From positions 8,767 to 72,766 of the forward strand of contig JBBIKX010000001.1 of assembly GCA_037445205.1 (NCBI GenBank): 64,000 bases of DNA, given 5' to 3'. Below are positions 15,657 through 62,859 of the stretch, piece by piece. The notes beneath the pieces were generated by a model. The model did no database searches and was not told where the DNA came from. It was given only the letters and a program-made list of their open reading frames with translations. Source of the stretch: Candidatus Wildermuthbacteria bacterium. GTDB lineage: Bacteria; Patescibacteriota; Minisyncoccia; Minisyncoccales; PEYH01. The first letter of the stretch is position 1, and each line of letters opens with the position of its first letter. Both the position numbers and the translations under genes were made by a program.

Positions 15657-16405
15657 GAGAAATTCCCGTTAAAACCAAAGAAGAAATAGAAATTATGGCC
15701 AGGGCCGGAAAAATCCTGGCTTTAATTTTAGATTCTTTAAAAAAAGAGATTCGAGCCGGCATAAAAACAAAAGATTTAGACTTAAAGGCCCGTCAATTAA
15801 TTAATTTTTACAAAGCGAAGCCAGCTTTTCTGGGATACGATAATTTTCCGGCTGTTTTATGCGTTTCCGTGAACGACATAATCGTCCACGGAGTGCCCTC
15901 TGATCATCAATTAAAAACAGGGGATATTATAAGCCTGGATCTTGGAATAAAATATGGCGGTTTTTATGTTGATATGGCGGTTACGATGCCGGTTGGAAAA
16001 GTTGATTCCGAGGCCTTAAGATTGATAAAAACCACAAAAAAAGCGCTCAAAAGAGCAATCAAAAAAGTCAGGCCCGGGAACACTTTTGGCGATGTCAGCA
16101 ACACTATTCAAAGATATATTGAGAAGCGGGGATTTTTTGTGATAAAAGATCTGTGCGGGCATGGCATCGGGAAAAAGCTTCACGAACCGCCGGAAATTTT
16201 AAATTATGGCAAAAGAAAAACAGGTCCTTTGTTGCGCGAAGGAATGGTTTTTTGTATAGAGCCAATGGCTTCAATCAGCGCTGAAAAAACAAAAAAATCC
16301 GATGATATCTGCGGATACAAAACGATTGATGGATCTCTGTCCGCCCATTTTGAACATACAGTGGCAGTGACAAAAAATGGGGCAAGGATTCTCACTAAAA
16401 TTTGA
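15653..16405 (+). CDS. map: Methionine aminopeptidase type I
   Basis: 250 aa; pita-bread fold metal ligands. Confidence 0.93.
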   Translation: MREIPVKTKEEIEIMARAGKILALILDSLKKEIRAGIKTKDLDLKARQLINFYKAKPAFLGYDNFPAVLCVSVNDIIVHGVPSDHQLKTGDIISLDLGIKYGGFYVDMAVTMPVGKVDSEALRLIKTTKKALKRAIKKVRPGNTFGDVSNTIQRYIEKRGFFVIKDLCGHGIGKKLHEPPEILNYGKRKTGPLLREGMVFCIEPMASISAEKTKKSDDICGYKTIDGSLSAHFEHTVAVTKNGARILTKI

Positions 16406-16461
16406 CGATTGGATCATATTATATTACTATAAAGAATCCCAAAAAAGATAAGGAGGTAGTG
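16402..16461 (+). promoter_or_regulatory. Promoter (TTGACG - 17 nt - TACTAT) plus conserved leader ending in AAGGAGGTAG for cassette A
   Basis: Leader ATATTATATTACTATAAAGAATCCCAAAAAAGATAAGGAGGTAG is near-identical to the leader at 56351-56387. Confidence 0.45.
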
Positions 16462-16839
16462 ATGAGAAGGATAACGCTTTTAGTAGGACTAGTTCCGCTT
16501 TCGCTCTGCACGGTTTTGGCGAGTCATTTCCTTGAGCTGCGCGGTTTCCATTACGAGCAAGCCGCTGTCTTATTTCTTCCTTTCTTAATATGGCTGACCT
16601 TATTGCGGCTTGTGGAAGGGTCAAGGGCTTGGATAGCTTGGATCGGATTTGGAACCGCCAGCGCATTGGGCGGTTTCGTTGTTTTTTCGGTGGTTCTGCA
16701 TCATCTTGCAGAGTGGAAAATAGGCCTTTGTCTCATCATGTTAGTTGCCTACTGTTTTGCCTGTGGGTTCGTTGGCCTGCTTGGTTACGATATCTGGAAG
16801 CTACAGCGCCACAATCGCGACAAGAAGAAAAAATCGTAA
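16462..16839 (+). CDS. GC-rich small membrane protein (about 4 TM), cassette A
   Basis: 125 aa from ATG 16462, 8 nt after AAGGAGG; GC far above flanks; hydrophobic. Confidence 0.6.
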   Translation: MRRITLLVGLVPLSLCTVLASHFLELRGFHYEQAAVLFLPFLIWLTLLRLVEGSRAWIAWIGFGTASALGGFVVFSVVLHHLAEWKIGLCLIMLVAYCFACGFVGLLGYDIWKLQRHNRDKKKKS

Positions 16840-16882
16840 CAAAGCAGAGCCGGGCAGATGGGGAAATTGAGGTTGGGATGTC

Positions 16883-16916
16883 GGGGGCATAGCTAGGCCC
16901 CCTTTTTCTTTTTTTG
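16883..16916 (+). terminator. Intrinsic terminator (GGGGGC/GCCCCC stem plus T-run) ending cassette A
   Basis: GC hairpin followed by TTTTTCTTTTTTT. Confidence 0.55.
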
Positions 16917-49058: not shown

Positions 49059-49092
49059 CAGGGAATAAAAGAGGGATTATTCTAAAGCAATA

Positions 49093-49364: not shown

Positions 49365-49367
49365 ACT

Positions 49368-49990: not shown

Positions 49991-50006
49991 AAAAACTTTA
50001 AAAATT

Positions 50007-50429
50007 ATGAAAAAAATACAAACAAAAGTTAAACTCCATATCGCCGCCGCTCAGGCTAATCCCGCCCCTCCTATCGGTCCCGCCCTTGCGCAACACGGAA
50101 TAAACATCGCTGACTTTTGCCAGAAGTTTAATGCCGCAACTAAAAATCTGGCAGGTTATCAGATTCCTGTTGAAATATCAATATACGAGGACAGGACTTT
50201 TAATTTTAAAATAAAACAGCCCCTTGTCAGCGATCTTTTAAAAAAGGCAGCGGGCATTGAGAAAGGGTCGGGCGAGCCGAATAAAATTAAGGCTGGAATA
50301 ATCACCAAAGAGCAGTTAAAAGAGATTGCCCAGAAGAAATTAGACGATTTAAACACAAAAAACATTGATGCCGCAATGAAAATTATTGAAGGACAGGCAA
50401 GATCAATGGGAATTGAAATTAAAAATTAG
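50007..50429 (+). CDS. rplK: 50S ribosomal protein L11
   Basis: 140 aa; [14 protein letters not shown] motif. Confidence 0.95.
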
Positions 50430-50434
50430 TTTTT

Positions 50435-51265
50435 ATGACCCAGTTTGACGAGCAGTATAAACAAGCAATCTGGGAAGTAATGAACGGAGGTACGGAAATT
50501 TACAGCGCAAGACAGAAATGTCATACCAAAGCTTTTCCGGGCATAACCTTTAATTTAGACAAAGGATTTCCTCTGCTTACTTTGAGAAAAATTCCTGTTA
50601 AAATTTTTGTCGCTGAACAATTCTGGTTTTTGATGGGCGAAAAAGACCCCAAGGTTTTTTTAAAAAAATTTACTGCCATATGGGATGATTTTGCCGATCA
50701 AAATGGATTAGTTTTGGGCGCTTATGGCTATCGCTGGAGGAAGCATTTTGGGAAAGATCAAATAGCCAATTTGTTGAGCCTTCTTTCCCAGGATCCAAGT
50801 TCGCGTCACGGAGTTGTGGTGGCGTGGGATCCCTCAGACGACATCAGGACCCTTGATTCAAAAAAGAAAAACGTTCCCTGCCCCTATACTTTCACTGTTA
50901 ATATTATCGGCAATAAGCTTCATATTCATATTATTATAAGGTCAAACGATATGATTCTTGGCTGTCCTCACGATATTGCGGGATTTGCGCTTTTGCAAAG
51001 GATTTTGGCCGGAAAGCTGGGGGTAAAGACAGGAAAGCTTACTTGTTCCATCAGCAATGCCCACATTTACGATATTCATTACAATGCGGCATGGGAGATG
51101 CTTGAAAGAAAAAACAATCATCCCGAAATTATTTTGGACGCAGAAGAAAATTGGTTTGACAGGGCGGAGAAGGGAGATGAATCGCTTGCTCAAGAAATTA
51201 TAGATACCATTGCAAGACAATATAGCCCGATGAATCCCATTAAGGGCTTAAAAATTATTTTATAA
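50435..51265 (+). CDS. thyA: Thymidylate synthase (ThyA type)
   Basis: 276 aa; folate-dependent TS motifs. Confidence 0.93.
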   Translation: MTQFDEQYKQAIWEVMNGGTEIYSARQKCHTKAFPGITFNLDKGFPLLTLRKIPVKIFVAEQFWFLMGEKDPKVFLKKFTAIWDDFADQNGLVLGAYGYRWRKHFGKDQIANLLSLLSQDPSSRHGVVVAWDPSDDIRTLDSKKKNVPCPYTFTVNIIGNKLHIHIIIRSNDMILGCPHDIAGFALLQRILAGKLGVKTGKLTCSISNAHIYDIHYNAAWEMLERKNNHPEIILDAEENWFDRAEKGDESLAQEIIDTIARQYSPMNPIKGLKIIL

Positions 51266-51270
51266 ATTAT

Positions 51271-51777
51271 ATGAAAATAATTTTAGTAATGGCAATCACG
51301 CTTGATGGGAAAATTGCCAAGACAAAAGACCATTTTCCAAACTGGACGTCAAAGGAGGATAAAAACTTCTTTGCCAAAATTTCAAAAAAGCACAAGGTCG
51401 TCTTAATGGGAAAGAACACTTTTGATACCTTCAAAAAACCGCTCAAAGACAGATTAAATGTGGTTTTTACAAATAAAAAAAATCTGGCGAAGATAAAAAA
51501 TGTAATGTGGGTTTCGGGCAAAATAAGTCCGATTTTAAAAAAGCTGGAAAAGAGGGGATATAAATCGGCGGTTCTTGGCGGAGGAGCAATGTTGAACGCA
51601 GAGTTCTTAAAGGAAAAATTGATAGATGAGGTTATAGTCACAATCAATCCCAAAATCTTTGGGCGAGGGATATCTTTGTTTGAAGGAGATTTTGATATTG
51701 ATTTAAAACTTTTAAAAGTGGAAAATATTAATAAAGATACGATAGCTCTTCGTTATAGGCCGGTGTTTTGTAATTAA
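51271..51777 (+). CDS. folA: Dihydrofolate reductase
   Basis: 168 aa; MKIILVMAITLDGKIA N-terminus; adjacent to thyA. Confidence 0.85.
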   Translation: MKIILVMAITLDGKIAKTKDHFPNWTSKEDKNFFAKISKKHKVVLMGKNTFDTFKKPLKDRLNVVFTNKKNLAKIKNVMWVSGKISPILKKLEKRGYKSAVLGGGAMLNAEFLKEKLIDEVIVTINPKIFGRGISLFEGDFDIDLKLLKVENINKDTIALRYRPVFCN

Positions 51778-51786
51778 ATTAAAAAT

Positions 51787-52443
51787 ATGCCCCTATCAAA
51801 ACCTGAAATCATAAAATCCATCCAAGAAGAGAAAATTAAATTTGAACCGTCTCTTGATAAATTTCAGCTTCAGCCCCATTCCATTGATTTGCGGCTTGGT
51901 TGGAATTTTTATATACCAAAAAACTGGGCAATCACGGAAAAGGGAAGGGTTGGCGTAAGTATTGATTATTTGGACACGCAATCCCAAAAAGACAACTTTG
52001 ATTTAATCAAATTAAAACCCGGTCAGTATTTTGAAATTTTGCCAAAAGAATTCATTATTGCTTCGACAATGGAAAAGGTGGTTATAGAAGCCGATAAGCT
52101 AATGGCATTGTTGTATCCCAGAAGCTCTTTTACAAGAAAAGGGTTGTTCATTGCCAGCGGAATCGTTGATGTAAAATACAGCGGATATCTGGCTCTTTCA
52201 GTGATAAACAATACAGAAACCCAGATTATAAGGCTATATCCGGGCGAAAGAGTGTGCCAGCTGGTCTTTCATTTTTTAAGCTCTGCTTTGTCGCCAGAAG
52301 AGGCAATTAAGCACGGGATAAGCGATTCCAAATATTTAAAAGCGGCTCCTTATTCTCTTGAGGCAAAAAGCGACAATCAGGAAGAAATAGATCTAATCAG
52401 ATTTGGAAAGATTGGCGAATTGAAAGAAAAATTCAAATTATAA
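51787..52443 (+). CDS. dcd: dCTP deaminase
   Basis: 218 aa; dUTPase-like fold. Confidence 0.9.
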   Translation: MPLSKPEIIKSIQEEKIKFEPSLDKFQLQPHSIDLRLGWNFYIPKNWAITEKGRVGVSIDYLDTQSQKDNFDLIKLKPGQYFEILPKEFIIASTMEKVVIEADKLMALLYPRSSFTRKGLFIASGIVDVKYSGYLALSVINNTETQIIRLYPGERVCQLVFHFLSSALSPEEAIKHGISDSKYLKAAPYSLEAKSDNQEEIDLIRFGKIGELKEKFKL

Positions 52444-52449
52444 AAGCCG

Positions 52450-52908
52450 ATGGGAAAAGAAGGAATAAAATATCCCTATTTGCCGGAAGCAAGAGAAATA
52501 AAATTTGTTTCAGAAAAAAATATTTTTATCAGGGAGGCGAAGAAAATTTGCAAAAAGAAAGGATGCATTGCGCATCCAACAGGGGCGGTTTTGGTCAAAA
52601 AGAATAAAATCATAGGGAAGGGGACTAACGCCGCAAAAAAAATAAAAGATTGTCCAAGGGCTTTGAAAAAAAGCAAGACCGGCCAAGATTATCATTTATG
52701 CAAAAAAATTTGCCTGCAGGAAGGACACGCAGAAGCGATGGCGATTAAAAGCGCAAAAGAAAAAAAGGAGAAAATCAGAGGAGCAGATTTATATCTTTAT
52801 GGCCATTGGTGGTGCTGTAAAGATTGTTGGGATAAAATCATCAAAGAAGGGATAGGAGAGGTTTATTTAATTGAAAACGCTTTTGATAAATTTCATAAGC
52901 GAATATGA
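52450..52908 (+). CDS. Deoxycytidylate (dCMP) deaminase, CDA zinc family
   Basis: 152 aa; HAEAMAI and CCKDC zinc ligands. Confidence 0.8.
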   Translation: MGKEGIKYPYLPEAREIKFVSEKNIFIREAKKICKKKGCIAHPTGAVLVKKNKIIGKGTNAAKKIKDCPRALKKSKTGQDYHLCKKICLQEGHAEAMAIKSAKEKKEKIRGADLYLYGHWWCCKDCWDKIIKEGIGEVYLIENAFDKFHKRI

Positions 52909-53540
52909 AAAAAAATCCTTATCTTGGAAAATTCATAGTTTTTGAAGGGCTGGACGGGTCCGGACAAAGCACCCAAGCATCAAAACTGGTGGATTATTTC
53001 AATGAAAAAAACCAGATATTTAAATTTGGGCATACCGGAGCGCATCTTACCAAAGAGCCGACATCCGGAATTATTGGAGGATTAATCAGGGGCCAGCTAT
53101 CTTTTGACTGGAAATCTTCTCAAGAATGCCTCCAGCTTTTATTTGCGGCAGATCGGGCGTACCATCTAGAAAAGGAGATTTTGCCTCTTTTGGAAATGGG
53201 CGTAACGGTGGTTTGCGATCGTTATTTTTTTTCTTCTTGCGCCTTCGGGGCGCTGGAGGCCGATCAGGAATGGCTTTTAAAAATCAATGAAAAGTTTCTT
53301 TTGCCTGATTTGATATTCCTGCTTGCTGTTTCTCCCAAAATCTGCATTGAAAGAATAAAAAGAAATCGTTTTGAAATAAATCTTTTTGAAAACGAAGAAA
53401 TATTAAAAAATGTGTGGGAGAAATACTTGATATTGGCACATCAAAATAAAAACACGCATATTATAGACGGGGAACGGCCGATCAATGAGATTTTTGAGGA
53501 GATTAAAGAAATAACTGATAGGAAATTTAACCAACGATGA
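52905..53540 (+). CDS. tmk: Thymidylate kinase
   Basis: 211 aa; FIVFEGLDGSGQSTQ P-loop. Confidence 0.9.
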   Translation: MKKNPYLGKFIVFEGLDGSGQSTQASKLVDYFNEKNQIFKFGHTGAHLTKEPTSGIIGGLIRGQLSFDWKSSQECLQLLFAADRAYHLEKEILPLLEMGVTVVCDRYFFSSCAFGALEADQEWLLKINEKFLLPDLIFLLAVSPKICIERIKRNRFEINLFENEEILKNVWEKYLILAHQNKNTHIIDGERPINEIFEEIKEITDRKFNQR

Positions 53541-55024
53541 TAAATTCATCAAAAAAATATATTCCCGTCATCGGGCTTGAAATACATACGGAATTAAAAA
53601 CTAATTCCAAAATGTTTTGCGGGTGCAAAAACGATTCGCAGGAAAAAGAAGCGAATTTGAATATTTGTCCTGTTTGCATGGGTCATCCCGGCACTCTCCC
53701 CGTTATAAACAAAACAGCGATTCGTTTTGTCATAAAAACAGGGATTGCTCTGAATTGTAAAATTACAAAAGAGTCGCGATTTGAAAGAAAAAATTATTTT
53801 TATCCCGATCTTCCAAAAGGATATCAGATTTCTCAATACAAAGAGCCGTTTTGTTTTAATGGCTTTTTAAAAATAAATAATAAAAAAATAAGAATTAGAA
53901 GGGTTCATTTGGAAGAAGATACTGCCCGCCTGATACACTCCAAAAATGGATATTCGCTGATTGATTTCAACCGCGCCGGCATTCCTTTAATGGAGCTTGT
54001 AACGGAGCCGGACATAGAATCTTCTAAAGAGGCATCAGACTTCGCAAAAAAACTTCAGTTGATCCTGAGATATTTAAATGTTTCCAGCGCTGACATGGAA
54101 AAAGGGCAATTGAGAGTGGAGGCAAATATTTCATTAATAAACGCAAATTTTAAAGCAAAAAACGCAAAACTAGGAACAAAGGTGGAGATCAAAAATTTAA
54201 ATTCGTTTAGGGCAGTTGAGAGGGCGATAGAATATGAAATAGAAAGGCAAAAGGAGTTACTATTAAATGATGAGAGGGTGGCGCAGGAAACAAGAGGATG
54301 GGATCCTCAATCAGAAAGAACCTTTCCCCAGAGAGAAAAAGAAGAGGCGCATGATTACCGCTACTTTCCAGAGCCGGATTTGCCCCAGATTTATATAAAA
54401 AAAGACTATCTGGAGGCGATAAAAAAAGGAATTCCCGAACTTCCCGATCAAAAAATAAAAAGATTAAAAGAAGAATTTTTTGTTAACGAACAATCAGCCC
54501 AGATTCTTGTCTCTAACAGAGATTTAAGCGAGTATTTTGAAAAATCGGCAAGCGAGCTTTTAAGATGGTCAAAAGACAAAAGATTAGATCAAAAGAGCCA
54601 AAAAGAATTGATACAGAGCGCCGCCAACTATCTTTTGACAGATTTACTCGGCTGTCTTTCAGGGAAAGAATTTTCAGAAAAAGATTTTCCCATAACGCCT
54701 GAAAATTTCGGAGAGTTTATCGCTCTTGTCCGCGATAAAAAATTCACAAGCAAAATGGCAAAAATTCTTTTAGGAGAGATGTTTGATTCCGGCCAAGATC
54801 CCTCAACCATAATAAAAAAAAGAGGATTAATCCAGACGGACAACGAAGATGAGATTAAAAAAATAGTGCAAAAAATAATTTCATCAAATCCTCGGGCATT
54901 TGAAGATTATAAAAAAGGAAAAGAAAATGCTCTTCAATTCATGATTGGACAAATGATGAAAGAAACTAAAGGCACTATAAATCCCCAGATGGCAAAGAAA
55001 GCGTTGATTGATTTTTTAAAATAA
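53537..55024 (+). CDS. gatB: Asp/Glu-tRNA amidotransferase subunit B
   Basis: 495 aa; IGLEIHTELKT...MFCGC N-terminus. Confidence 0.95.
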   Translation: MINSSKKYIPVIGLEIHTELKTNSKMFCGCKNDSQEKEANLNICPVCMGHPGTLPVINKTAIRFVIKTGIALNCKITKESRFERKNYFYPDLPKGYQISQYKEPFCFNGFLKINNKKIRIRRVHLEEDTARLIHSKNGYSLIDFNRAGIPLMELVTEPDIESSKEASDFAKKLQLILRYLNVSSADMEKGQLRVEANISLINANFKAKNAKLGTKVEIKNLNSFRAVERAIEYEIERQKELLLNDERVAQETRGWDPQSERTFPQREKEEAHDYRYFPEPDLPQIYIKKDYLEAIKKGIPELPDQKIKRLKEEFFVNEQSAQILVSNRDLSEYFEKSASELLRWSKDKRLDQKSQKELIQSAANYLLTDLLGCLSGKEFSEKDFPITPENFGEFIALVRDKKFTSKMAKILLGEMFDSGQDPSTIIKKRGLIQTDNEDEIKKIVQKIISSNPRAFEDYKKGKENALQFMIGQMMKETKGTINPQMAKKALIDFLK

Positions 55025-55135
55025 TATATAATACTTAAAATCCAGAATAAGGAGGTGGTCGCCGGGATACAGTCCAAAGAGGGCGAGGGGCGTTTTCGGA
55101 AGCAAAACCGGATCTTTCTTGCGAAAGGAGCATCG

Positions 55136-55333
55136 ATGCCAGCAGTAAATCTTGTTAACGTGGCGAGGTCATTGCCGGACGAAGAGGCGGAGAGGCTTTT
55201 GCTCATCGAGCAAAGCAATCCTGATTGCCTCAGGGCGCTTTTTGCGGTCGTTCTGAGCGCCGGAACGCTGGAAAAAGCTGTTCCTCTGATCCAACGAGTT
55301 CTTGCTGGCGCACCCTTGTTTCCGGGCGGATGA
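55136..55333 (+). CDS. GC-rich small hypothetical protein (65 aa), cassette C
   Basis: MPAVNLVNVARSLPDEEAERLLLIEQSNP...; AAAGGAG SD 7 nt upstream; second AAGGAGGTGG at 55050; shares locus with the miaA 3' end on the opposite strand. Confidence 0.45.
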   Translation: MPAVNLVNVARSLPDEEAERLLLIEQSNPDCLRALFAVVLSAGTLEKAVPLIQRVLAGAPLFPGG

Positions 55334-56341
55334 AACTGGATGGGGCTCCCTTCGGGAGCCCCCTTGTTTTGTTAAAAAAGTATTTATTATTTTTCTGGCT
55401 TTTTTTTTATCCCCAACCCAATTTACTCTTTTGTCTTTTTTAAACCAGGTTATTTGTCTTTTGGCGTAACTTTCAATTGCTTTTTGGAGCATTCCGACCA
55501 TTTCATCATAGCCAATTTTTTTTTGAAGATAGCAAGCAATATATCTGTATTCCAATCCAAATTCTTCAAGCCGTTTCCAGGAAACGCCGTCTTTTCTTAG
55601 CGCTCTGACCTCTTTTATCATCCCCTGATTTAATCTTTTGTATAGCCGTTTTCTGATTAAATTTTTTAGCTCTTTTTTTTCTTTCTTGATGCCGATAATG
55701 AGCAAATCAAACAATTGGCTTTTTTTTATGACGGGTACCGGTTTTTTTGATTTCAAAACTATTTCAATTGCCCGGATTAATCTGCGGGGATTTTTTTTAT
55801 CAATAATTTTTGCCCGCCGCGGGTCCAGTTTTTTTAACATTTGATAAAGCTGGTTTGGCAATTTTTTTTCCAGTTTTTTCCTTAATTTCCAGTCCGGCGG
55901 AATTTTTGGGATGACGATTCCGTCAACGACTGATTGAATATAGAATCCGGTGCCGCCGCAAAGAATGGGCAGCTTATTTCTCTTATGGATTTCCCTTATT
56001 TTTTTTAATGCCATTTTTTGATACTGGGCGACCGTAAATTTCCTTTTTGGAGAAGCAACATCCAAAAGATGATGTTGGATGCCTCTATAAAGATATGACT
56101 GTTTTGAAATTTGAGATTTAGGACTTGGAGTTTGTTTAGAAATTAGAAATTTGGAATTAGAAATTTTATCTCGTGGAACCTTCCCGGTTCCGATATCCAT
56201 TTTGCGATAAACCTGACGGGAATCGGCCGAAATCACCTCTCCGTTAAAATTTTTTGCCAGTGCTACCGCCAAATCGCTTTTTCCCGAAGCAGTGGGTCCA
56301 AGAATAACTAACAATATTTTTCGGTCCGTTTTTTTTGACAT
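55169..56341 (-). CDS. miaA: tRNA dimethylallyltransferase with about 75-aa aberrant C-terminal extension read through a GC-rich cassette
   Basis: 390 aa; ILGPTASGKSDLA P-loop; canonical C-terminus (...RQITWFKK...) reached about 75 aa before the stop. Confidence 0.88.
   Translation of the reverse strand: MSKKTDRKILLVILGPTASGKSDLAVALAKNFNGEVISADSRQVYRKMDIGTGKVPRDKISNSKFLISKQTPSPKSQISKQSYLYRGIQHHLLDVASPKRKFTVAQYQKMALKKIREIHKRNKLPILCGGTGFYIQSVVDGIVIPKIPPDWKLRKKLEKKLPNQLYQMLKKLDPRRAKIIDKKNPRRLIRAIEIVLKSKKPVPVIKKSQLFDLLIIGIKKEKKELKNLIRKRLYKRLNQGMIKEVRALRKDGVSWKRLEEFGLEYRYIACYLQKKIGYDEMVGMLQKAIESYAKRQITWFKKDKRVNWVGDKKKARKIINTFLTKQGGSRREPHPVSSARKQGCASKNSLDQRNSFFQRSGAQNDRKKRPEAIRIALLDEQKPLRLFVRQ
55342..55374 (+). 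terminator. Intrinsic terminator with UUCG tetraloop (GGGGCTCCC-TTCG-GGGAGCCCC plus CTTGTTTTGTT)
   Basis: 9-bp GC stem, TTCG loop, U-tract; lies inside the extended miaA reading frame on the other strand. Confidence 0.6.
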
Positions 56342-56387
56342 AATCCCAAGAATATTATATCATTATAAATCCCAAAAAGGAGGTGGT
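56335..56387 (+). promoter_or_regulatory. Promoter (TTGACA - 17 - TATCAT) plus conserved leader and AAGGAGGTGG for cassette B
   Basis: Consensus -35; leader ATATTATATCATTATAAATCCCAAAAAGGAGGTGG is near-identical to the cassette A leader. Confidence 0.45.
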
Positions 56388-56389
56388 TA

Positions 56390-56683
56390 ATGTCGTATTA
56401 TTTAGCAATAATGTTTATGTTGCTAAGCGCAGGCTTTGCAAGTGCGGGGTTTAGGGTGATCCGTTATGCCCTTCGAGGAAAGCTGACAGGCACTATGCTT
56501 GATAGAGGCATGATACTCGGTACTGTCATCGTGCTTGTTGGAGTGGGGCTCGCCACGATTCCCATCATCTTCCAGAGCGGGATAAGATGGTGGTGTCTTG
56601 CGCTGGCGCTTGTGGAGGCAGTGGTCTGTATTGGGCTCTGGATGCTGCATGTCTTCTCGTCTGCGTCAATGGATTCACCCTAA
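56390..56683 (+). CDS. GC-rich small membrane protein (3 TM), cassette B
   Basis: 97 aa; strong SD; about 50% GC; opposite orientation between miaB and miaA. Confidence 0.6.
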   Translation: MSYYLAIMFMLLSAGFASAGFRVIRYALRGKLTGTMLDRGMILGTVIVLVGVGLATIPIIFQSGIRWWCLALALVEAVVCIGLWMLHVFSSASMDSP

Positions 56684-56694
56684 GGCGTGGATTG

Positions 56695-56730
56695 CGAGGG
56701 CTCTCTTGTGCGGGGGCCCTCCTTTTTTAT
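56695..56730 (+). terminator. Intrinsic terminator (GAGGGC/GCCCTC plus T6) ending cassette B; the miaB stop codon sits in its T-tract
   Basis: GC hairpin and TTTTTT. Confidence 0.55.
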
Positions 56731-58061
56731 TCCATCAATTTTCCTCTCAGTCCGTATGGACCAATGTTTATTATTTTGGCTTTAACAAAATTTCCTAAAA
56801 TATTTTTATCTGATTTCAATCTAATGGTTTGATAATGCCTTGTTTTTCCGACATAAAAATCATTTTTTTTGGTGAGTATCAAAACTTCCGCGGTTTTTTT
56901 AAAAAACTTCTTGTTAAAATTTAAAATGGTTTTTTTTAATACTTTGAATAATTCTTTTTCTCTTGTTTTTTTCTTAAAGTTGGGGACATCGTCGTTTAAA
57001 TGAAGGGCGGCTGTTTGAGGCCTTTTAGAATAAGCCGCAATATATCCAAACGCAAATCCGATTTTTTCAAAATTATTTTTTGTATTTTCAAATTGTTTTT
57101 TGGTCTCGCCGGGAAATCCTACAATTACATCAGAAGATACAGCCACTTCTTTTTCGATGCCGCATCTGTATTTTTTAAAATTATTTCTTATTTTTTTAAT
57201 AAGCGCTTTATATTGAGATACAGTGTAGGGCCTATTCATTTTTTTAAGGATTTCATTGTCTCCTGATTGAATTGGAAGATTAATATAGGGCGTTACTTTA
57301 TGGCATTTTGCCATTGTTTTAATTAGTTCGTCGCTTAAATCTTTTGGATGAGAAGAGGTAAATCTTATCCAAAAATTCCCCTCAATATCATTTATCATTT
57401 TAAGAAGCGTTGGAAAATTTATTTCTTTTTCTTTTTTCACTTTAAGGTTTGTGTTTTGGATTTTACCATTATAGGAATTGACATTCTGTCCCAACAGCCA
57501 TACTTCTTTTGCTCCGCTTAAAACGGCCTTTTTTATTTCACAAATAATATCTTGGGCCGGCCTTGAGATTTCTTTTCCTCTTACATAAGGTACGACGCAA
57601 TAACTGCAGAAATTATTGCACCCGGTCATTATCGGAATATAGGCAACAACAGGGGATTGATATTTAGGCATTAATTCAAAATAGTGTTTTTTTTTGAATT
57701 CAACCGACCTAATTTTAAAACCAAGCTTTTTTAATATCTCGGGCAATTTGGGAAGCTCATTTATGTCAAAGATTTCATCGCAGAATTTATTAAGTTCTTT
57801 TTTGTCTTTTTCTAAGATACATCCCGTTAAAATAATTTTATATTTTATATTTTTATTTTCATATTTGAGCCTTATCTTTTTAATTCGAGCGCTTGCTCGA
57901 TCTATCGCCGACTGTCTGACTGAACAGATATTAAACACTATCAAATCCACCCCATCGCATTTATTGGCATGATTAAATCCTGATTTTTCCAAAACGCCTG
58001 CGATTCTTTCGGAGTCAGATTTATTCATTTGGCACCCAAAAGTGATAATATGATATTTCAT
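56727..58061 (-). CDS. miaB: tRNA methylthiotransferase (MiaB/RimO radical-SAM family)
   Basis: 444 aa; MTTF CxxxC and radical SAM CNNFCSYC motifs, TRAM C-terminus. Confidence 0.9.
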   Translation of the reverse strand: MKYHIITFGCQMNKSDSERIAGVLEKSGFNHANKCDGVDLIVFNICSVRQSAIDRASARIKKIRLKYENKNIKYKIILTGCILEKDKKELNKFCDEIFDINELPKLPEILKKLGFKIRSVEFKKKHYFELMPKYQSPVVAYIPIMTGCNNFCSYCVVPYVRGKEISRPAQDIICEIKKAVLSGAKEVWLLGQNVNSYNGKIQNTNLKVKKEKEINFPTLLKMINDIEGNFWIRFTSSHPKDLSDELIKTMAKCHKVTPYINLPIQSGDNEILKKMNRPYTVSQYKALIKKIRNNFKKYRCGIEKEVAVSSDVIVGFPGETKKQFENTKNNFEKIGFAFGYIAAYSKRPQTAALHLNDDVPNFKKKTREKELFKVLKKTILNFNKKFFKKTAEVLILTKKNDFYVGKTRHYQTIRLKSDKNILGNFVKAKIINIGPYGLRGKLME

Positions 58062-58092
58062 ATCTTTTCTTTAAGATAAACGCTAAAGAATA

Positions 58093-58536
58093 TTATTCTC
58101 CGATTATTTGAATCTGGATATTTCTTTTTTTAGGATAAGCGAGTTCTATGAAAAGAATGCTCTGCCATAAGCCGAGCTGCAGCTTTCCTTCAATTATATT
58201 TAGGCAGACGCTTGTTGGTATATGCAATGCTCTGCAATGAGAGTGGGCGTTCGGTTTCTCATCCGGACACATATTTACGGTTCTTATTTCAAAATTATTG
58301 TGATTATACGCTTTATTTTTCGGAGAACAATGCTCTAAGTGTTCTTTAATGTCCTGTAAAAGCAACGGTTCGTTTTCATTTACAAAAACAGAGGCGGTTG
58401 TGTGAAGAGACTGAATATTAATAATTCCGTTTTTTACCGCAGTTTTTTTGGTTATTTCTTTAATCCTTTCCGTGATATCGATAATTTGAAGTTCTTCGAC
58501 GGTATCAATAGAGATAATCGAATTTTTGATAATCAT
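58093..58536 (-). CDS. YjbQ/UPF0047 family protein (secondary thiamine-phosphate synthase-like)
   Basis: 147 aa; HTTASV motif, size typical. Confidence 0.75.
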   Translation of the reverse strand: MIIKNSIISIDTVEELQIIDITERIKEITKKTAVKNGIINIQSLHTTASVFVNENEPLLLQDIKEHLEHCSPKNKAYNHNNFEIRTVNMCPDEKPNAHSHCRALHIPTSVCLNIIEGKLQLGLWQSILFIELAYPKKRNIQIQIIGE

Positions 58537-60287
58537 TTTTTTTCTTTGATTTCTTTTTTTATTTTTTCAATGAAATCACGCAATGAAATAACACCTAAAT
58601 TTCCTTTTTCTCTGCTTCTCATGCTTATTTTTTGTTCTTTTTCTTCTTTATCCCCGGCAACAACAACGTAAGGAATTTTTTGAATTTCAGCTTCCCTTAT
58701 TTTTTTAGAAAGCGTTTCATTATCGTCTTTAATTTCCACTCTGATACTTTCTTTTTCTAATGCGTTTTTTATTCCTTGGGAATAAATCAAATGCCTTTGA
58801 GCAATCGGCATTATTGAAACCTGGACCGGAGAAAGCCAAAGGGGCAAAGCGCCTTTATAATGCTCTAATAAAAACGCAATGGTTCTTTCAATCGCGCCGA
58901 TTGAAGAACGATGAATCACAATCGGTTCTTTTTTTGAGCCGTCTTGGTCGATATAAGAAAGATTGAATCTTTTTGAGGCTAAAAAATCGTATTGCACGGT
59001 AAAAGCGGTTTCTTCTTTGCCGGCGAAATTTTTTATTTGAATATCTATTTTGGGCCCATAGAAAGCGGCTTCACCCTTTGCCTCAAAAAAAGGAGATTTT
59101 CTTTCGATTAAAACATCTCGCAAAATATTTTCCGCGAGAAGCCAGGATTTTTTATCCTGATAATATTTTTTAGCATTTTTTAGGTCGCCCAAAGACAATC
59201 TGTATCTGTAATTTTTATTTTTTTCCAAGCCCAGGGCGAAAGATACGCATTCTATCAAATCCAGAACTTTTTTAATTTCTTCTTTTGCCATTTCTTTTTG
59301 GCAGATGATATGGGAATCCGCCAAACAAAAAGATCGCACCCTCATCAGACCGGTTAATTCCCCGGATTTTTCGTATCTATACTGCTTTGCCAATTCGGCC
59401 AAGCGGAAAGGAAGATCTCTGTAAGATCTTGGAGCGTCAAGGTAAAGTTGATAATGATGCGGGCAGGTCATTGGTCTTAGAATCAGCTTTTCTTCGTCAA
59501 CCTGCATCACTGGATACATCGCATCTTTATAATAAGGGTAATGTCCGGAAACTTCATATAGAGCAACGCGAGCCAGATCGGGTGTGTAAATATGCATATA
59601 GCCCCTTTTAATTTCTTCTTCAACTATAAACCTTTCCAGTTCTCTTCTGATTATTGATCCCTTGGGCGTGAAAAGGGGTAATCCTTTGCCTACCAATTCG
59701 GAGAATGTGAACAAATTAAGCTTTTTTCCAATTATCCTATGGTCTCTTTTTTCCGCTTCTTTAATCAGTTCAAAGTGATTATCCAGTTCTTTTTTATTTT
59801 TAAAAGCAACCCCATAAATTCTTGTCATCATTTTATTCTTTTCGCTGCCCCTCCAATAAGCGCCCGCAATCTTAGTTAATTTAAAACAATCTTCTGGAAT
59901 TTCTTTTGTTGATTTTATATGCGGACCTCCGCACAAATCAATAAAATTTCCTGATTCATATATCGTAACCATTTTTTCTTTAAGCTCTTTGATCAGTTCA
60001 ATTTTATACGGTTGATTTTTAAAGATCTTTTTTGCTTCAATTTTAGAAACAAATCTTTTTTTAAATTTGATATTTTGTCGAATTAATTCTTTCATTTTTG
60101 TCTCAATTCTTGATAAATCATCAACGCTAAATCCGCTCCCATCTGAAGTCGTAGCGGGCAAGTCAAAATCATAATAAAATCCATTTTCAATAACCGGACC
60201 TATGCCAAACTTTGCTTTAGGATAAAGTTCTTTAACCGCATGCGCCATTATATGCGCCAGCGAATGTCTGATGGTGTCTAATTTCAT
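58533..60287 (-). CDS. thrS: Threonyl-tRNA synthetase (no N-terminal TGS domain)
   Basis: 584 aa; HSLAHIMAHAV editing motif; class II core. Confidence 0.95.
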   Translation of the reverse strand: MKLDTIRHSLAHIMAHAVKELYPKAKFGIGPVIENGFYYDFDLPATTSDGSGFSVDDLSRIETKMKELIRQNIKFKKRFVSKIEAKKIFKNQPYKIELIKELKEKMVTIYESGNFIDLCGGPHIKSTKEIPEDCFKLTKIAGAYWRGSEKNKMMTRIYGVAFKNKKELDNHFELIKEAEKRDHRIIGKKLNLFTFSELVGKGLPLFTPKGSIIRRELERFIVEEEIKRGYMHIYTPDLARVALYEVSGHYPYYKDAMYPVMQVDEEKLILRPMTCPHHYQLYLDAPRSYRDLPFRLAELAKQYRYEKSGELTGLMRVRSFCLADSHIICQKEMAKEEIKKVLDLIECVSFALGLEKNKNYRYRLSLGDLKNAKKYYQDKKSWLLAENILRDVLIERKSPFFEAKGEAAFYGPKIDIQIKNFAGKEETAFTVQYDFLASKRFNLSYIDQDGSKKEPIVIHRSSIGAIERTIAFLLEHYKGALPLWLSPVQVSIMPIAQRHLIYSQGIKNALEKESIRVEIKDDNETLSKKIREAEIQKIPYVVVAGDKEEKEQKISMRSREKGNLGVISLRDFIEKIKKEIKEKK

Positions 60288-60329
60288 AACGATTAATTAT
60301 ATTATTAATTTTTCAGGATTTTTTCAAAT

Positions 60330-61928
60330 TTAGGAAAGAGGGATATTGATGTAAAACAAAGAACCCTTCTCTGTTTTTTTGGGGGTTGCCCAGACAATTC
60401 CCCTATGAAGTTCGGTAAACTTTCTTGCGATATAAAGACCCAGCCCCGCCCCTCCTGTCCAGCTTTCTTCGCCCGCTTTTCCCCGCATAAAGCTTTGGAA
60501 GAGATTTGCAGCTTCTTCTTCGCTCATTCCAAGCCCCGTGTCAGAAATTTTTATAAGCGCCCTGTTTTCTTTAACAGTGCTGATAATTTCTATCCCGCCC
60601 TTCTCTGTGTATTTGATTGCGTTATCAATAATATTTATAAAAACCTGCCTTATTTTTTCTTTGTCTAACGACATTAAAGGAAGAGGAATATTCTTTTTAT
60701 ATCTTAAATACAGATCTTTCTGATGGGCGGCAATTTTTAATTGTTCCACCACTTCTCCAATTAAATCCTCAAGCGAGGTTTTTTCAATGTTCATTTCCAT
60801 TTTTCCCGCTTCAATCCGGGAGATGTCTAAAAGATCCTGCACAAGCTTATTAAGCTGGGAAACCACCTGAAAAGAATTTTTTATTGGTTTTTTGATTCCC
60901 CGCGAAACTTCTCCGTAGTTTTCTTCAAGAACCATTGAAAGGTAGCCGCGAACGATGGTTAAAGGGGTTCTCAATTGGTGCGAGGCAATAGAAATAAATT
61001 CTGTTTTCGCCTTGTCCAGCTCCGATAATTTTTCATAAGCAATTTTCAGTTTTTTCGCCATTTCCTCCATTTCTTTCCTCTGCTTTATTTCCCTGAGAAC
61101 GCTTCTTATAAGCAAAACTCCAAAAATCAAAAAAACAAAAAACACAAATCCCTTCCACATATACTGCCAGAGGTGAACCGCGTCAAAAATGTTAAAAAAC
61201 AAAACGATGCTTATAATGCCTACAATCAGGGCGGCAATTACAACCTTTATGTCAAAAAGTCGGTGCTTGACGATGGCATAGGAGAGTATTAGCGGGTAAA
61301 ACGCAACAAAAAAATTTCCATAGGGCGGAAAAGAAATTCCATACCACAATGGAAAATTTGTTGCGCCCCCTCCAAACCCAATTATTATTGCCAGAAAAAT
61401 ATATTTTATCTGGTTGCGGATATCGTTAGATGATTTTTTATAGACTTTTAAAAGTTCGTAGCAGGTGTAAGCAATTATCGCGCCGTATGCCCCAAAAAGA
61501 TAAATGGTGTAGACAGGTCCGGCTATCGGCCACCAGGGAAAATTAAGCTGGGGTTTTACATTTTTTACAAAAAGAGGGCTGAAGCTGAATAGAAATAAAA
61601 TTGCTGTAAGCAGGTATCCAGAAATAATGACCGCCCTTCTTTTTTTATGTAAATCATAAATTGTAAAAATCCAATGAAGGAATGTTATCGGTATGAAAGT
61701 TGATCCAATACTTAAGCATTTCGCCCAAAATAACGCAGTTTCTTTATTAAGACTTAGCTGCCAGAAACCGTAACTGACTCCCCAAAAAACAAGCGCGACA
61801 TTCATTAGCAAAAAAGTTTTATGGGAAAGCTTTTTTGGATTTTTATAGAATACAAAAAAACCGAAAATTATAGCCGATAGTCCGTTGATAAAACCAGATA
61901 AAGCGAATATATTCATATACAAAAACAA
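60330..61928 (-). CDS. Membrane sensor histidine kinase (multi-TM sensor, HisKA, HATPase_c); no cognate regulator in window
   Basis: 532 aa; about 6 N-terminal TM; ASHQLRTPLT H-box; G1/G2 boxes. Confidence 0.85.
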   Translation of the reverse strand: MFLYMNIFALSGFINGLSAIIFGFFVFYKNPKKLSHKTFLLMNVALVFWGVSYGFWQLSLNKETALFWAKCLSIGSTFIPITFLHWIFTIYDLHKKRRAVIISGYLLTAILFLFSFSPLFVKNVKPQLNFPWWPIAGPVYTIYLFGAYGAIIAYTCYELLKVYKKSSNDIRNQIKYIFLAIIIGFGGGATNFPLWYGISFPPYGNFFVAFYPLILSYAIVKHRLFDIKVVIAALIVGIISIVLFFNIFDAVHLWQYMWKGFVFFVFLIFGVLLIRSVLREIKQRKEMEEMAKKLKIAYEKLSELDKAKTEFISIASHQLRTPLTIVRGYLSMVLEENYGEVSRGIKKPIKNSFQVVSQLNKLVQDLLDISRIEAGKMEMNIEKTSLEDLIGEVVEQLKIAAHQKDLYLRYKKNIPLPLMSLDKEKIRQVFINIIDNAIKYTEKGGIEIISTVKENRALIKISDTGLGMSEEEAANLFQSFMRGKAGEESWTGGAGLGLYIARKFTELHRGIVWATPKKTEKGSLFYINIPLS

Positions 61929-61983
61929 ATCCCCCGGAGGTGCGTTAGTTCATTTTAACACCTTTTGGGGGATAGAGACAACG

Positions 61984-62859
61984 TTATGCTGGTTTATAGA
62001 CACGGTTTACCAGCACTTGGCGGGCAAACGTCACCCTCCATGTCGGGCCTACGAATCCGACTTCCCGGAGCAGTTGTTCCCATTGCGGAATTGCGAGGAA
62101 GGTGTATGTTCCTTCTTTTCCCTTTCTTTGTATTTCAAGGGCGTGACGAAGTATGCTTGTGCCCTGAAGAATTCGGCTAAAATCCCGATTTCTTATGTAG
62201 GGCAGAGGATTGAGCATGTCAGGAAGAGAAGCGACAAACACCCATTGGAAGTGAACGTTTTGTCTGGGAGTAGACCAGACGATATGTCCTCCGGGCTTGA
62301 GCACCCTATGCATCTCTCTGAAAACTTCCCTCATGGCCCTTATGCCTTTTTCGCTTCGAAAGTCAGTTGCATAGGGGATAACTAAATTTGCGATAATTCC
62401 ATCAAAGTGGTTATCGTCGAAGGGAAGTTCTTCGCCAAGATGAGCGAAAACAAGATGCATGGGCAACGTGGGGTGAAGAGATTGCGTTTTCCGCGCCGGA
62501 TCAAGAACTATATCCAGACCAACTACCAATTTGATAGTTCTGCCGGATTTGTTCCATGCCAAGAGAGCCATCTTGGCGGGTCCGCAGCCTACATCCAGCC
62601 AAACTTCGTTAGCTTTGGGCTGGATTAATCCGGCGACTGTCGTTGTAAGGTTGTGGTAGGGTCTTGCCTTTTCCAGGTTTTTGTAAATCCTTGCGTAATC
62701 CCTCCAAAACGCCAACTCTTGTCCCCAAGAGCGGATCCTTCCTCTTGTGAAGGGCGAAAGCCCGTTCTCATTTGCTTCCAGCCACTCTTCTATGCTCTCC
62801 GTGCTTAATCCTTCTCCAAAGCACGGCCCAAGGATCTCTGATATGCTTTTGGTTTTCAT
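61984..62859 (-). CDS. GC-rich class I SAM-dependent methyltransferase (small-molecule/UbiE-like rather than DNA MTase)
   Basis: 291 aa; LDVGCGPAKMA motif I; no (D/N)PP(Y/F); own TTGACA-17-TATAAA promoter and AAGGAGGTAAGGA SD upstream. Confidence 0.8.
   Translation of the reverse strand: MKTKSISEILGPCFGEGLSTESIEEWLEANENGLSPFTRGRIRSWGQELAFWRDYARIYKNLEKARPYHNLTTTVAGLIQPKANEVWLDVGCGPAKMALLAWNKSGRTIKLVVGLDIVLDPARKTQSLHPTLPMHLVFAHLGEELPFDDNHFDGIIANLVIPYATDFRSEKGIRAMREVFREMHRVLKPGGHIVWSTPRQNVHFQWVFVASLPDMLNPLPYIRNRDFSRILQGTSILRHALEIQRKGKEGTYTFLAIPQWEQLLREVGFVGPTWRVTFARQVLVNRVYKPA

What the first reader, a model, noticed from the sequence alone, without database searches (positions are those of the whole stretch)
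56335..56730. Mini-cassette B: GC-rich 97-aa membrane protein in opposite orientation between miaB and miaA, sharing the cassette A leader
The miaB-miaA pair is normally a tight co-directional operon. Here a + strand unit splits them. It has a TTGACA -35 overlapping the miaA start codon, the conserved leader, AAGGAGGTGG, a 3-TM ORF and a GC hairpin terminator whose T-tract contains the miaB stop codon. The precise nesting between essential tRNA-modification genes suggests a site-specific or selfish insertion.
Basis: seen in the sequence. Interest (0 to 1): 0.65.

Follow-up and report, generated by a model that had tools for sequence, protein, structure and literature searches.

The report
Inserted small membrane gene splitting miaB–miaA
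A self-contained little gene, with its own promoter, strong ribosome-binding site, terminator and a 97-residue three-helix membrane protein, sits backwards between two tRNA-modification genes that abut or overlap in related Patescibacteria; it is a lineage-specific orphan gene, and nothing shows it to be a mobile element.

Summary
These are a near-consensus promoter overlapping the miaA start codon, AAGGAGGTGG, a 97-codon ORF with three hydrophobic helices, and a terminator whose T-tract holds the miaB stop.

In 31 related Patescibacteria loci (MiaA 52-64% identical), miaB and miaA abut or overlap. The 385-bp unit is therefore a derived insertion. It is shared only with one close relative, represented by two contigs whose MiaA is 95% identical.

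The protein is an orphan, with no homologue in searches of 5.8 billion clusters and 1.84 billion representatives. It evolves at dN/dS about 1.1.

The unit is not alone. The composite promoter-leader pattern (TTGAY-N17-19-TANNNT-N3-7-AATCC, then GGAGG) occurs exactly three times in the window, in front of cassette A, cassette B and a third cassette at 16402. All eight GC-rich genes carry 6-11-nt Shine-Dalgarno sequences, and all 64 core genes carry none. One member of this class, a lipid-kinase island, keeps both traits in distant relatives, so "recent foreign DNA" is too simple.

I found no recombinase next to the unit, no target duplication, no inverted ends beyond a 10-nt pair formed by the ribosome-binding site and the terminator tail, and no second copy. 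The best description is a moron-like, autonomously expressed accessory gene. A selfish or site-specific insertion is not supported.

The parts
56335..56363 (+). Cassette B promoter: TTGACA, 17-nt spacer, TATCAT. The -35 hexamer overlaps the miaA start codon (56339-56341, - strand).
   Evidence: 11 of 12 consensus positions. Conserved in L001.
56342..56378 (+). Leader motif as a direct repeat: AATCCCAAGAA (56342-52) and AATCCCAAAAA (56368-78). The second copy lies between the -10 box and the Shine-Dalgarno sequence, and is shared with cassette C16. Cassette A has AAATCCAGAA.
   Evidence: D3.
56377..56386 (+). Shine-Dalgarno sequence AAGGAGGTGG, with 9 nt complementary to the canonical 16S rRNA tail, 3 nt before the ATG.
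56390..56683 (+). ORF of 97 aa, a predicted three-pass membrane protein. It is an orphan with 89% aa identity to P0002 of L001/L002.
56696..56731 (+). Intrinsic terminator: a 10-bp hairpin (56696-56721) plus CTTTTTTATT. The miaB stop codon (56727-56729, - strand) lies in the T-tract. No T-run follows the hairpin on the - strand, so it looks unidirectional.
56362..56390 (-). Promoter-like site on the opposite strand (TTAACC, 17 nt, TATAAT) about 20 nt upstream of the miaA ATG. It is a candidate new promoter for miaA, inside the AT-rich head of the cassette.
   Evidence: 10 of 12. The -10 box is conserved in L001. Function is inferred.
55391..56341 (-). miaA (IPP transferase). The core of 317 codons is given here; the open frame runs on to 55169.
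56727..58061 (-). miaB (UPF0004, radical SAM and TRAM domains), 444 aa.
55004..55375 (+). Cassette A, same architecture. Promoter TTGATT-17-TATAAT (55004-55032), AAATCC, an orphan AAGGAGGTGG (55049-58), an ~80-nt leader, ORF 55136-55333 (65 aa), and terminator 55342-55362.
16402..16915 (+). Cassette C16, same architecture. TTGACG (which contains the TGA stop of the map gene), 17 nt, TACTAT, AATCCCAAAAA, AAGGAGGT, ORF 16462-16839 (125 aa, hydrophobic, GC 0.48), hairpin 16883-16902 and a T-run.

Best explanation
Cassette B is a real, autonomous, monocistronic gene for a small three-pass membrane protein. It was gained by insertion of about 385 bp (56342-56726) into the formerly overlapping miaB/miaA junction, in the recent ancestor of this genome and its close relative.

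It works like a phage 'moron'. It has its own sigma-70-type promoter, its own intrinsic terminator and a composition unlike its neighbours, and it sits between genes that are adjacent in relatives.

Shown:
- The ancestral overlap of miaB and miaA, and the presence of the unit only in this lineage.
- The promoter, Shine-Dalgarno, ORF and terminator anatomy.
- An intact ORF in both alleles, and orphan status.
- Fast protein evolution.
- Membership of a genome-wide class of GC-rich, Shine-Dalgarno-led genes in a genome whose core genes lack Shine-Dalgarno sequences.
- Reuse of one promoter-leader design in three cassettes with unrelated ORFs.

Inferred:
- A transcript of about 355 nt starts near 56366-56370 and ends in the U-tract.
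- Translation depends on the long Shine-Dalgarno sequence because the GC-rich mRNA is structured.
- The K/R-rich loop (residues 22-39) is cytoplasmic.
- The insertion broke miaB-miaA translational coupling. miaA is now served by the opposite-strand promoter in the cassette head, or by read-through that is antisense to the cassette, because the hairpin terminates only the + strand.

The protein's role is unknown. My best guess, at low confidence, is a dispensable envelope or defence-type accessory factor under weak or diversifying selection. This resembles the small membrane exclusion proteins encoded by phage morons.
For: - Anatomy.
- Tight or overlapping miaB-miaA in 31 related loci: read directly.
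- Same unit at the same place in L001/L002.
- Coding signals: ideal Shine-Dalgarno-to-ATG spacing, and an ORF that fills the transcript. The open frame has a 1.6% chance in shuffles. The annotated frame has the best codon score of six frames in both alleles. Three hydrophobic helices are predicted.
- Class membership: 8 of 8 GC-rich genes have Shine-Dalgarno matches of at least 6 nt, against 0 of 64 core genes, Fisher p = 8e-11. The same trend holds in relatives: 46 Shine-Dalgarno-led ORFs, median length 79 aa, mean GC excess +0.055, p = 3e-10.
- Shared promoter-leader: three occurrences of the composite pattern against 0.13 expected.
- A second, unrelated small gene in the same slot and orientation in L005/L111 is under purifying selection, with dN/dS 0.21. 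That shows such nested genes can be real proteins.
- The definition of a moron comes from PMC3594210.
Against: - dN/dS is about 1.09 (about 11 nonsynonymous and 3 synonymous changes), against 0.06-0.27 for neighbouring genes. That is significantly above 0.1 (p = 3e-5) and above 0.27 (p = 0.014).
- The changes include L44P, V47G and S18E in predicted helices, and a 14-nt indel rewrites the C-terminal tail.
- Only two alleles exist. No homologue, family or structure match was found.
- There is no expression or proteomic evidence.
- The AF2 model has low confidence.
- The source and the mechanism of insertion are unknown.
Confidence: 0.6

Rival explanations
1. The unit is transcribed, but the ORF product is functionless or decaying. 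What selection now keeps are the regulatory parts: a new promoter for miaA on the opposite strand, and a terminator shielding miaB. The GC-rich body drifts neutrally.
For: dN/dS is about 1.1, with radical substitutions in predicted helices and an indel at the 3' end. The protein is an orphan. A promoter-like site for miaA lies inside the cassette head. The Shine-Dalgarno sequence is weakened in L001, AAGGAGATGG.
Against: The ORF is still open in both alleles (1.6% chance in shuffles). Codon scoring picks the annotated frame in both alleles. Residues 57-86 are invariant at the protein level. dN/dS of 1.1 from 14 changes is not distinguishable from 0.5 (p = 0.14). Another GC-rich class member, a methyltransferase, also shows 0.65.
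Confidence: 0.2
2. It is a structured non-coding RNA. GC-rich intergenic islands in AT-rich genomes often are, and the ORF would then be incidental.
For: The segment is a GC-rich intergenic stretch with its own promoter and terminator. The MFE z-score is -2.2. dN/dS is about 1. Eleven single-sided changes keep predicted pairs.
Against: There is no Rfam match, even at E up to 10. Zero compensatory double changes were seen. The alifold structure was fitted to the two sequences, and transitions often preserve G-U pairs by chance. A 9-nt Shine-Dalgarno sequence at 3 nt from an ATG opens a frame that spans the whole transcript and encodes three segments of transmembrane length. Frame-specific codon scores favour the annotated frame.
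Confidence: 0.08
3. It is a selfish or site-specific mobile cassette. A mobile unit would target the miaB/miaA junction.
For: The nesting between stop and start codons is precise. A different small gene occupies the same slot and orientation in L005/L111. Cassette A is swapped for a 26%-identical allele between genomes whose flanking DNA is 95-96% identical. Three cassettes share a promoter-leader design.
Against: It is single copy. There are no target-site duplications, and the only inverted repeat at the ends is the 10-nt pair formed by the ribosome-binding site and the terminator tail. The immediate neighbours are miaA and miaB, with no recombinase next to it. No copy was found in any searched collection. 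The 3' hairpins are ordinary terminators with no shared sequence. The allele swap includes the miaA 3' end, as expected for homologous recombination through flanking genes.
Confidence: 0.07
4. It is a type-I-toxin-like module. A membrane-active peptide would have its mRNA held in check by antisense transcription (miaB read-through) and by pairing of its 5' Shine-Dalgarno sequence with the 3' terminator tail.
For: A perfect 10-nt inverted repeat, AAAAAGGAGG (56374-83) and CCTCCTTTTT (56718-27), brackets the unit (I5). It is kept in L001. The hairpin does not terminate the - strand, so antisense read-through is possible. The product is hydrophobic.
Against: At 97 aa with three helices, it is larger than typical type I toxins. 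No dedicated antisense RNA gene is evident. An A-rich leader pairing with a terminator U-tract is a common folding artefact, and the CCTCC is part of the terminator stem. There are no homologues or multiple copies.
Confidence: 0.05

Closest known systems
Phage morons (e.g. HK97 gene 15 element)
   Same: It is an independent transcription unit with its own promoter and terminator. It is inserted between two genes that are adjacent in relatives, and its GC content differs from its neighbours. The definition is in PMC3594210. From my own knowledge, such elements often encode small membrane proteins.
   Different: It sits in a cellular Patescibacteria chromosome between housekeeping genes, not in a phage or prophage. 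There are no phage-family hits. Its GC-rich, Shine-Dalgarno-led character is a class trait that also occurs in vertically inherited genes here.
Putative mobile promoters / promoter propagation (Matus-Garcia et al. 2012, PMC3488235)
   Same: [quoted passage not shown]
   Different: Similarity is about 70% over 40-55 nt. That is below the published criterion of at least 80% identity over 50-100 nt. Much of the similarity is in functional boxes (-35, -10, Shine-Dalgarno) plus the AATCC(C)A motif.
Integron gene cassettes
   Same: They are short single-gene units with a hairpin-forming 3' end, and several units have unrelated ORFs.
   Different: Each unit here has its own promoter. The 3' hairpins are plain GC stems with T-runs and share no sequence. 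The units are scattered, not arrayed next to an integrase and attI.
Type I toxin-antitoxin loci
   Same: It is a small hydrophobic ORF with a strong Shine-Dalgarno sequence, potential 5'-3' pairing and potential antisense transcription.
   Different: The product is 97 aa with three helices. No dedicated antisense RNA gene is evident, and there is no family membership.
Lineage-specific orphan (ORFan) genes in bacterial genomes
   Same: There are no homologues. The gene is short, compositionally atypical, under relaxed constraint, and present only in very close relatives.
   Different: It is unusually well equipped, with a near-consensus promoter, a 9-nt Shine-Dalgarno sequence and a terminator. 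It is nested inside a formerly overlapping gene pair, and its promoter-leader design recurs at two other cassettes.

Membership tests
Phage moron | Own promoter and own terminator (independent transcription unit) | tested here: met
   The promoter matches 11 of 12 consensus positions, and there is a 10-bp hairpin plus T-run. This is sequence evidence only, with no transcript data.
Phage moron | Lies between genes that are adjacent in related genomes | tested here: met
   miaB and miaA abut or overlap in 31 related loci.
Phage moron | Nucleotide composition differs from the surrounding genes | tested here: met
   GC is 0.51 and GC3 0.56, against 0.32-0.37 and 0.29-0.35 in the flanks.
Phage moron | Resides in a phage or prophage genome | tested here: not met
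   The flanks are gatB, miaA, miaB, yjbQ and thrS. The window carries a secY-adk-map segment, tRNA genes and tRNA-synthetase genes. There are no PHROG, phage or IMG/VR hits.
Putative mobile promoter (PMP) | [quoted passage not shown] | tested here: not met
   A versus B is 70% over 40 nt. Gapped alignments of about 55-60 nt are well below 80%. The downstream ORFs are non-homologous.
Integron gene cassette | attC recombination site at the 3' end, and a promoterless ORF | tested here: not met
   The 3' ends are unrelated GC hairpins with T-runs. Each unit has its own -35 and -10 boxes. The attC check was by inspection only.
Integron gene cassette | Adjacent integron integrase and attI, with cassettes in an array | tested here: not met
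   The neighbours are miaA and miaB. The three cassettes lie at 16.4, 55.0 and 56.3 kb.
Insertion sequence / MITE | Terminal inverted repeats, target-site duplication and multiple copies | tested here: not met
   There is no target-site duplication. The only bracketing inverted repeat is the 10-nt pair formed by the Shine-Dalgarno sequence and the terminator tail. No repeat family includes the body of the unit.
Type I toxin-antitoxin | Small (typically under 60 aa) single-helix hydrophobic toxin | tested here: not met
   The product is 97 aa with three predicted helices. The size criterion is from my own knowledge.
Type I toxin-antitoxin | Dedicated antisense RNA overlapping the toxin mRNA | tested here: inconclusive
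   Only weak - strand promoter-like sites are present (56426->56397, 9 of 12; 56390->56362, 10 of 12). Read-through from miaB is possible. There is no transcript data.
Known structured RNA families (Rfam 15) | Match to a covariance model | tested here: not met
   Nothing reached gathering score. At E up to 10 there are only scattered matches of 11-22 bits to unrelated families.

The most novel reading that the evidence does not exclude
This Patescibacteria lineage has a previously undescribed way of installing and expressing accessory mini-genes. A reusable promoter-leader module of about 55 nt (TTGAY, 17-19 nt, TANNNT, AATCC(C)A, then AAGGAGGT) is joined to unrelated GC-rich ORFs and a terminator. 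These self-contained units are dropped into gene junctions, with boxes overlapping the neighbours' start or stop codons. They form a separate translational class, Shine-Dalgarno-dependent and GC-rich, alongside a Shine-Dalgarno-less AT-rich core genome. The class would be maintained by selection or biased recombination rather than by recent transfer.
Probability: 0.12. Interest if true: 0.75.

Novelty: new variant of a known kind. Interest (0 to 1): 0.45.

Why it matters
Patescibacteria genomes are small and tightly packed, and how they gain new genes is poorly understood. This locus shows a clean gain. A complete transcription unit for an orphan membrane protein was inserted exactly into a formerly overlapping, translationally coupled gene pair for tRNA modification, and an unrelated gene independently occupies the same slot in another lineage.

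The locus also exposes two classes of genes in one genome. Core genes are AT-rich and lack Shine-Dalgarno sequences. A minority class is GC-richer, mostly short, and carries very long Shine-Dalgarno sequences. Three members of that class share a promoter-leader design.

If the class distinction is maintained by selection, it bears on how translation initiation is partitioned in organisms that mostly do without Shine-Dalgarno pairing. It would also give a simple sequence signature for finding accessory or recently born genes in uncultivated bacteria.

Tried and rejected
- Homology searches for the 97-aa protein gave nothing useful. I used the word-indexed search of 5.8 billion clusters and an exhaustive phmmer of 1.84 billion representatives. 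The only extra hit, P0003, is a repeat protein matching GFxVxRY..G.LD by chance.
- Pfam, PHROGs, PADLOC, NCBIfam and PDB sequence searches found nothing.
- Phage tblastn, plasmid blastn and IMG/VR protein and leader-pattern scans found nothing.
- The cassette A protein has no word-sharing candidate at all.
- Rfam gave nothing at gathering score or at E up to 10. I considered RNase P or tmRNA because of a GAGGAAAG stretch and the GC-richness. I rejected them: there is no model hit, ARAGORN finds no tmRNA, and the weak RNase MRP match is in cassette A at 10.8 bits.
- I tested whether GC-richness simply reflects amino-acid content. It does not, because GC3 is also raised.
- I tested 'recent horizontal transfer' as the explanation for the GC-rich class. 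I rejected it as a general explanation. The lipid-kinase island keeps its position, GC-richness and Shine-Dalgarno sequence in relatives as diverged as the flanking core genes, and native MraZ is also Shine-Dalgarno-led in relatives.
- Covariation analysis was uninformative with two alleles.
- I did not take the AF2 model to fold search, because its confidence is too low.
- The genome and metagenome scans with MiaA found no relative between 67% and 95% identity. The time of insertion is therefore only loosely bounded.
Full report
**1. Observation**

The region reads exactly as described.
- The promoter is TTGACA (56335-56340), a 17-nt spacer and TATCAT (56358-56363). It matches 11 of 12 consensus positions and is the best promoter-like site in 54800-57000.
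- Its -35 hexamer shares two bases with the miaA start codon (56339-56341, - strand).
- AAGGAGGTGG (56377-56386) is followed 3 nt later by ATG 56390. The frame stays open for 97 codons, to TAA 56681-56683.
- A 10-bp hairpin (56696-56721) is followed by CTTTTTTATT. The miaB stop (56727-56729, - strand) lies in that tract.
- AAGGAGGTGG occurs only twice in 64 kb, against 0.08 expected. The other copy is in 'cassette A' at 55049.
- The window has GC 38.7%. The ORF has GC 0.51 and GC3 0.56, against 0.32-0.37 and 0.29-0.35 for miaB and miaA. The excess is therefore not just amino-acid content.
- Hydropathy gives three hydrophobic segments and a K/R-rich loop at residues 22-39. A low-confidence AF2 model (pLDDT 61) gives helices at 2-30, 38-62 and 66-93.

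**2. Surroundings**

The window belongs to a Patescibacteria (candidate phyla radiation) genome. The best-named relatives of its MiaA are Nealsonbacteria, Pacebacteria and 'Patescibacteria group' MAGs.

The local gene order is tmk, gatB (+), cassette A (+), miaA (-), cassette B (+), miaB, yjbQ, thrS (-).

Cassette A has the same build:
- promoter TTGATT-17-TATAAT (55004-55032)
- AAATCC
- an AAGGAGGTGG with no start codon at usable spacing
- a leader of about 80 nt
- a 65-aa ORF (55136-55333) with its own AAGGAG
- a terminator at 55342-55362

**3. Relatives: insertion or native?**

One close relative is represented by two contigs, L001 (GCA_964383555.1) and L002 (SRR11582140). It has the same gene at the same place, 89% identical in protein, with the same promoter, leader and terminator and the same raised GC.

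Nothing else was found between 67% and 95% MiaA identity.

Among loci with MiaA 52-64% identical:
- 29 have a miaB-to-miaA gap of at most 25 nt or an overlap, and in 2 more the matches overlap.
- Direct reading of L004, L086 and L112 shows the miaA ATG lying inside the last codons of miaB.
- The ancestral state is therefore an overlapping, probably translationally coupled pair. The 385 bp at 56342-56726 are a derived insertion.

There are two exceptions:
- L005 and L111 have a homologous pair of about 90-aa proteins, unrelated to cassette B, in the same slot. The orientation is the same, with GATAAGGAGGTGG and a terminator abutting the miaB stop. Their dN/dS is 0.21.
- L088 has a co-directional 196-aa gene inserted between miaB and miaA.

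The convergent gatB-miaA gap (the cassette A slot) ranges from 18 to 1963 nt. It holds arrays of small genes.

**4. Coding or not?**

For coding:
- The Shine-Dalgarno sequence is long and well spaced.
- The ORF fills the transcript. An open frame of this length after the ATG arises in 1.6% of shuffles.
- Under a codon model trained on the two enzyme genes of the GC-rich class and their homologues, the annotated frame scores best of six. This holds in both alleles, and likewise for cassettes A and C16.

Against strong protein constraint:
- Window versus L001 gives about 11 nonsynonymous and 3 synonymous changes, dN/dS 1.09. The values for tmk, gatB, miaA, thrS and miaB are 0.06-0.27.
- That is significantly above 0.1 and 0.27, but not above 0.5.
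- The changes include L44P, V47G and S18E. A 14-nt indel rewrites the tail.

For an RNA there is little evidence:
- There is no Rfam match, even at E up to 10.
- The fold z-score is -2.2.
- No compensatory double changes were seen.

I conclude it is most likely a translated but weakly constrained, or diversifying, orphan gene.

**5. It belongs to a class**

Scanning all starts shows that 64 of 64 core genes have at most a 5-nt match to AAGGAGGTGAT in the 25 nt upstream. Most have essentially none.

All eight GC-rich genes have 6-11-nt matches (Fisher p = 8e-11):
- cassette B
- cassette A
- a third cassette, 'C16' (ORF 16462-16839, 125 aa, hydrophobic)
- the four genes of a GC-rich island at 40590-42348
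- a methyltransferase at 61984-62859

In relatives, 46 distinct ORFs led by a Shine-Dalgarno match of at least 7 nt have a median length of 79 aa. They are GC-richer than their locus in 91% of cases.

The composite pattern TTGA[CT]-N17-19-TANNNT-N3-7-AATCC occurs exactly three times in the window, against 0.13 expected and a maximum of 2 in 200 shuffles. The sites are C16, A and B, each followed by GGAGG. B and C16 share the 11-mer AATCCCAAAAA between the -10 box and the Shine-Dalgarno sequence.

Their proteins are unrelated.

**6. Is the class foreign?**

Not simply.
- The lipid-kinase (DAGK/YegS-like) gene of the island has homologues of 54-56% identity at the same position upstream of pheS-pheT-gyrB, in L163 and L164.
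- That divergence matches the flanking core genes (pheS 60%, pheT 45%).
- In those relatives the gene is still GC-rich (0.45-0.50 against 0.32-0.40) and still Shine-Dalgarno-led.
- MraZ, a native regulator, is also Shine-Dalgarno-led in relatives.

GC-richness plus a Shine-Dalgarno sequence is therefore a long-lived class trait of unknown cause. For cassette B it supports class membership rather than proving recent import.

Independent evidence for recent gain is its absence from all more distant relatives and its orphan status.

**7. Mobility**

I found nothing that marks a selfish or site-specific element.
- There is no target-site duplication. The only bracketing inverted repeat is AAAAAGGAGG/CCTCCTTTTT, formed by the Shine-Dalgarno sequence and the terminator tail.
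- No repeat family includes the body of the unit.
- No recombinase lies next to it.
- No copy was found in phage, plasmid or IMG/VR collections or in the 164 fetched loci.

The exchange of cassette A looks like homologous recombination through conserved flanks. The flanking DNA is 95-96% identical, yet 55038-55414 has no blastn match and the two proteins are 26% identical. The exchanged segment includes the miaA 3' end. Divergence along the locus is mosaic, with dS from 0.025 to above 1.

**8. How it most likely works**

Shown:
- the anatomy
- the derived insertion
- class membership

Inferred:
- A monocistronic mRNA of about 355 nt.
- Shine-Dalgarno-dependent translation of a structured GC-rich message, in a cell whose other mRNAs initiate without Shine-Dalgarno pairing.
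- A three-pass membrane product.
- Loss of miaB-miaA coupling. miaA would be served by a - strand promoter-like site (TTAACC-17-TATAAT, 56390 to 56362) that leaves a very short leader.
- Alternatively, miaA is reached by read-through from miaB. No T-run follows the hairpin on the - strand. That read-through would be antisense to the cassette.

The closest functional analogy is the phage moron: own promoter and terminator, atypical GC, and a position between genes adjacent in relatives (PMC3594210). It fails the membership criterion of residing in a phage.

The shared leader resembles 'putative mobile promoters' (PMC3488235). It falls short of their criterion of at least 80% identity over 50-100 nt.

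**9. Verdict**

It is a new variant of a known kind, and moderately interesting. The more intriguing and unexplained result is the two-class genome and the reused promoter-leader.

Noticed in passing
window 16402-16915 (+): A third mini-cassette, C16, lies after the map gene. Its -35 TTGACG contains the map TGA stop. It is followed by TACTAT, AATCCCAAAAA, AAGGAGGT, a 125-aa hydrophobic GC-rich ORF (16462-16839) and a hairpin plus T-run. The promoter-leader design is the same as in cassettes A and B.
   Followed up: partly
window 40520-42400 (+): A GC-rich island (up to 63% GC) holds a DAGK/YegS-like lipid kinase (40590-41588) and three small Shine-Dalgarno-led ORFs (41648-41815, 41838-42101, 42205-42348), with hairpin terminators. 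The kinase keeps its position, GC-richness and Shine-Dalgarno sequence in distant relatives L163 and L164.
   Followed up: partly
window 55169-55390 (-): The miaA frame has no stop at the usual place. It runs on for 73 extra codons, antisense through cassette A's terminator and ORF, giving 390 aa. L001 MiaA is 317 aa. One base fewer in the A6/T6 run at 55374-55379 would create a TAA, so this may be a homopolymer error or a real extension.
   Followed up: partly
window 55038-55414 vs L001 8644-9025: The cassette A region, together with the miaA 3' end, has no blastn match between genomes whose flanking DNA is 95-96% identical. The two small proteins are 26% identical, yet about 40 nt of the 5' leader (GGAGGTGGT...CAGTC..AAGAGGCGAGG) is conserved.
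   Followed up: partly
window 47562-49058 (+): A 498-aa AT-rich ORF without any Pfam hit lies after gyrB. The segment (about 47572-49027) is absent from L001.
   Followed up: no
window 49905-49990 (+): Two 39-nt copies with a 47-nt period (AAAWTATGATTCCCGCCTTCGGCAGGACCCCGTCTTTCT) lie between ORFs 49368-49913 and 50007-50429, which correspond to the NusG and L11 genes annotated in L001. The repeat is also present in L001.
   Followed up: no
L004, L007-L009, L091-L101 and others (miaB): In many related lineages the MiaB match ends near residue 376. For example, L004 MiaB is 339 aa. These proteins appear to lack the C-terminal TRAM domain, while the genes overlap miaA.
   Followed up: no
L088 193-994: A co-directional 196-aa gene is inserted between miaB and miaA. 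It is flanked by palindromes containing GCGATCGC.
   Followed up: no
gatB-miaA gap in L003-L119: The convergent gap varies from 18 to 1963 nt. It holds arrays of small genes, each with a long Shine-Dalgarno sequence (AAAGGAGGTGA/G). These include MraZ and several recurring unknown families.
   Followed up: partly
window 44981-62943 vs L001: Divergence is mosaic. dS is 0.025-0.10 around the methyltransferase, cassette B, miaA and the histidine kinase. It is 0.2-0.3 for gatB and tmk, 0.5 for miaB, and above 1 for thrS and yjbQ. This implies frequent recombination between related lineages.
   Followed up: partly
window, all genes: Core genes have essentially no Shine-Dalgarno sequence: 64 of 64 have at most a 5-nt match. 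Every GC-rich gene has a 6-11-nt match.
   Followed up: yes
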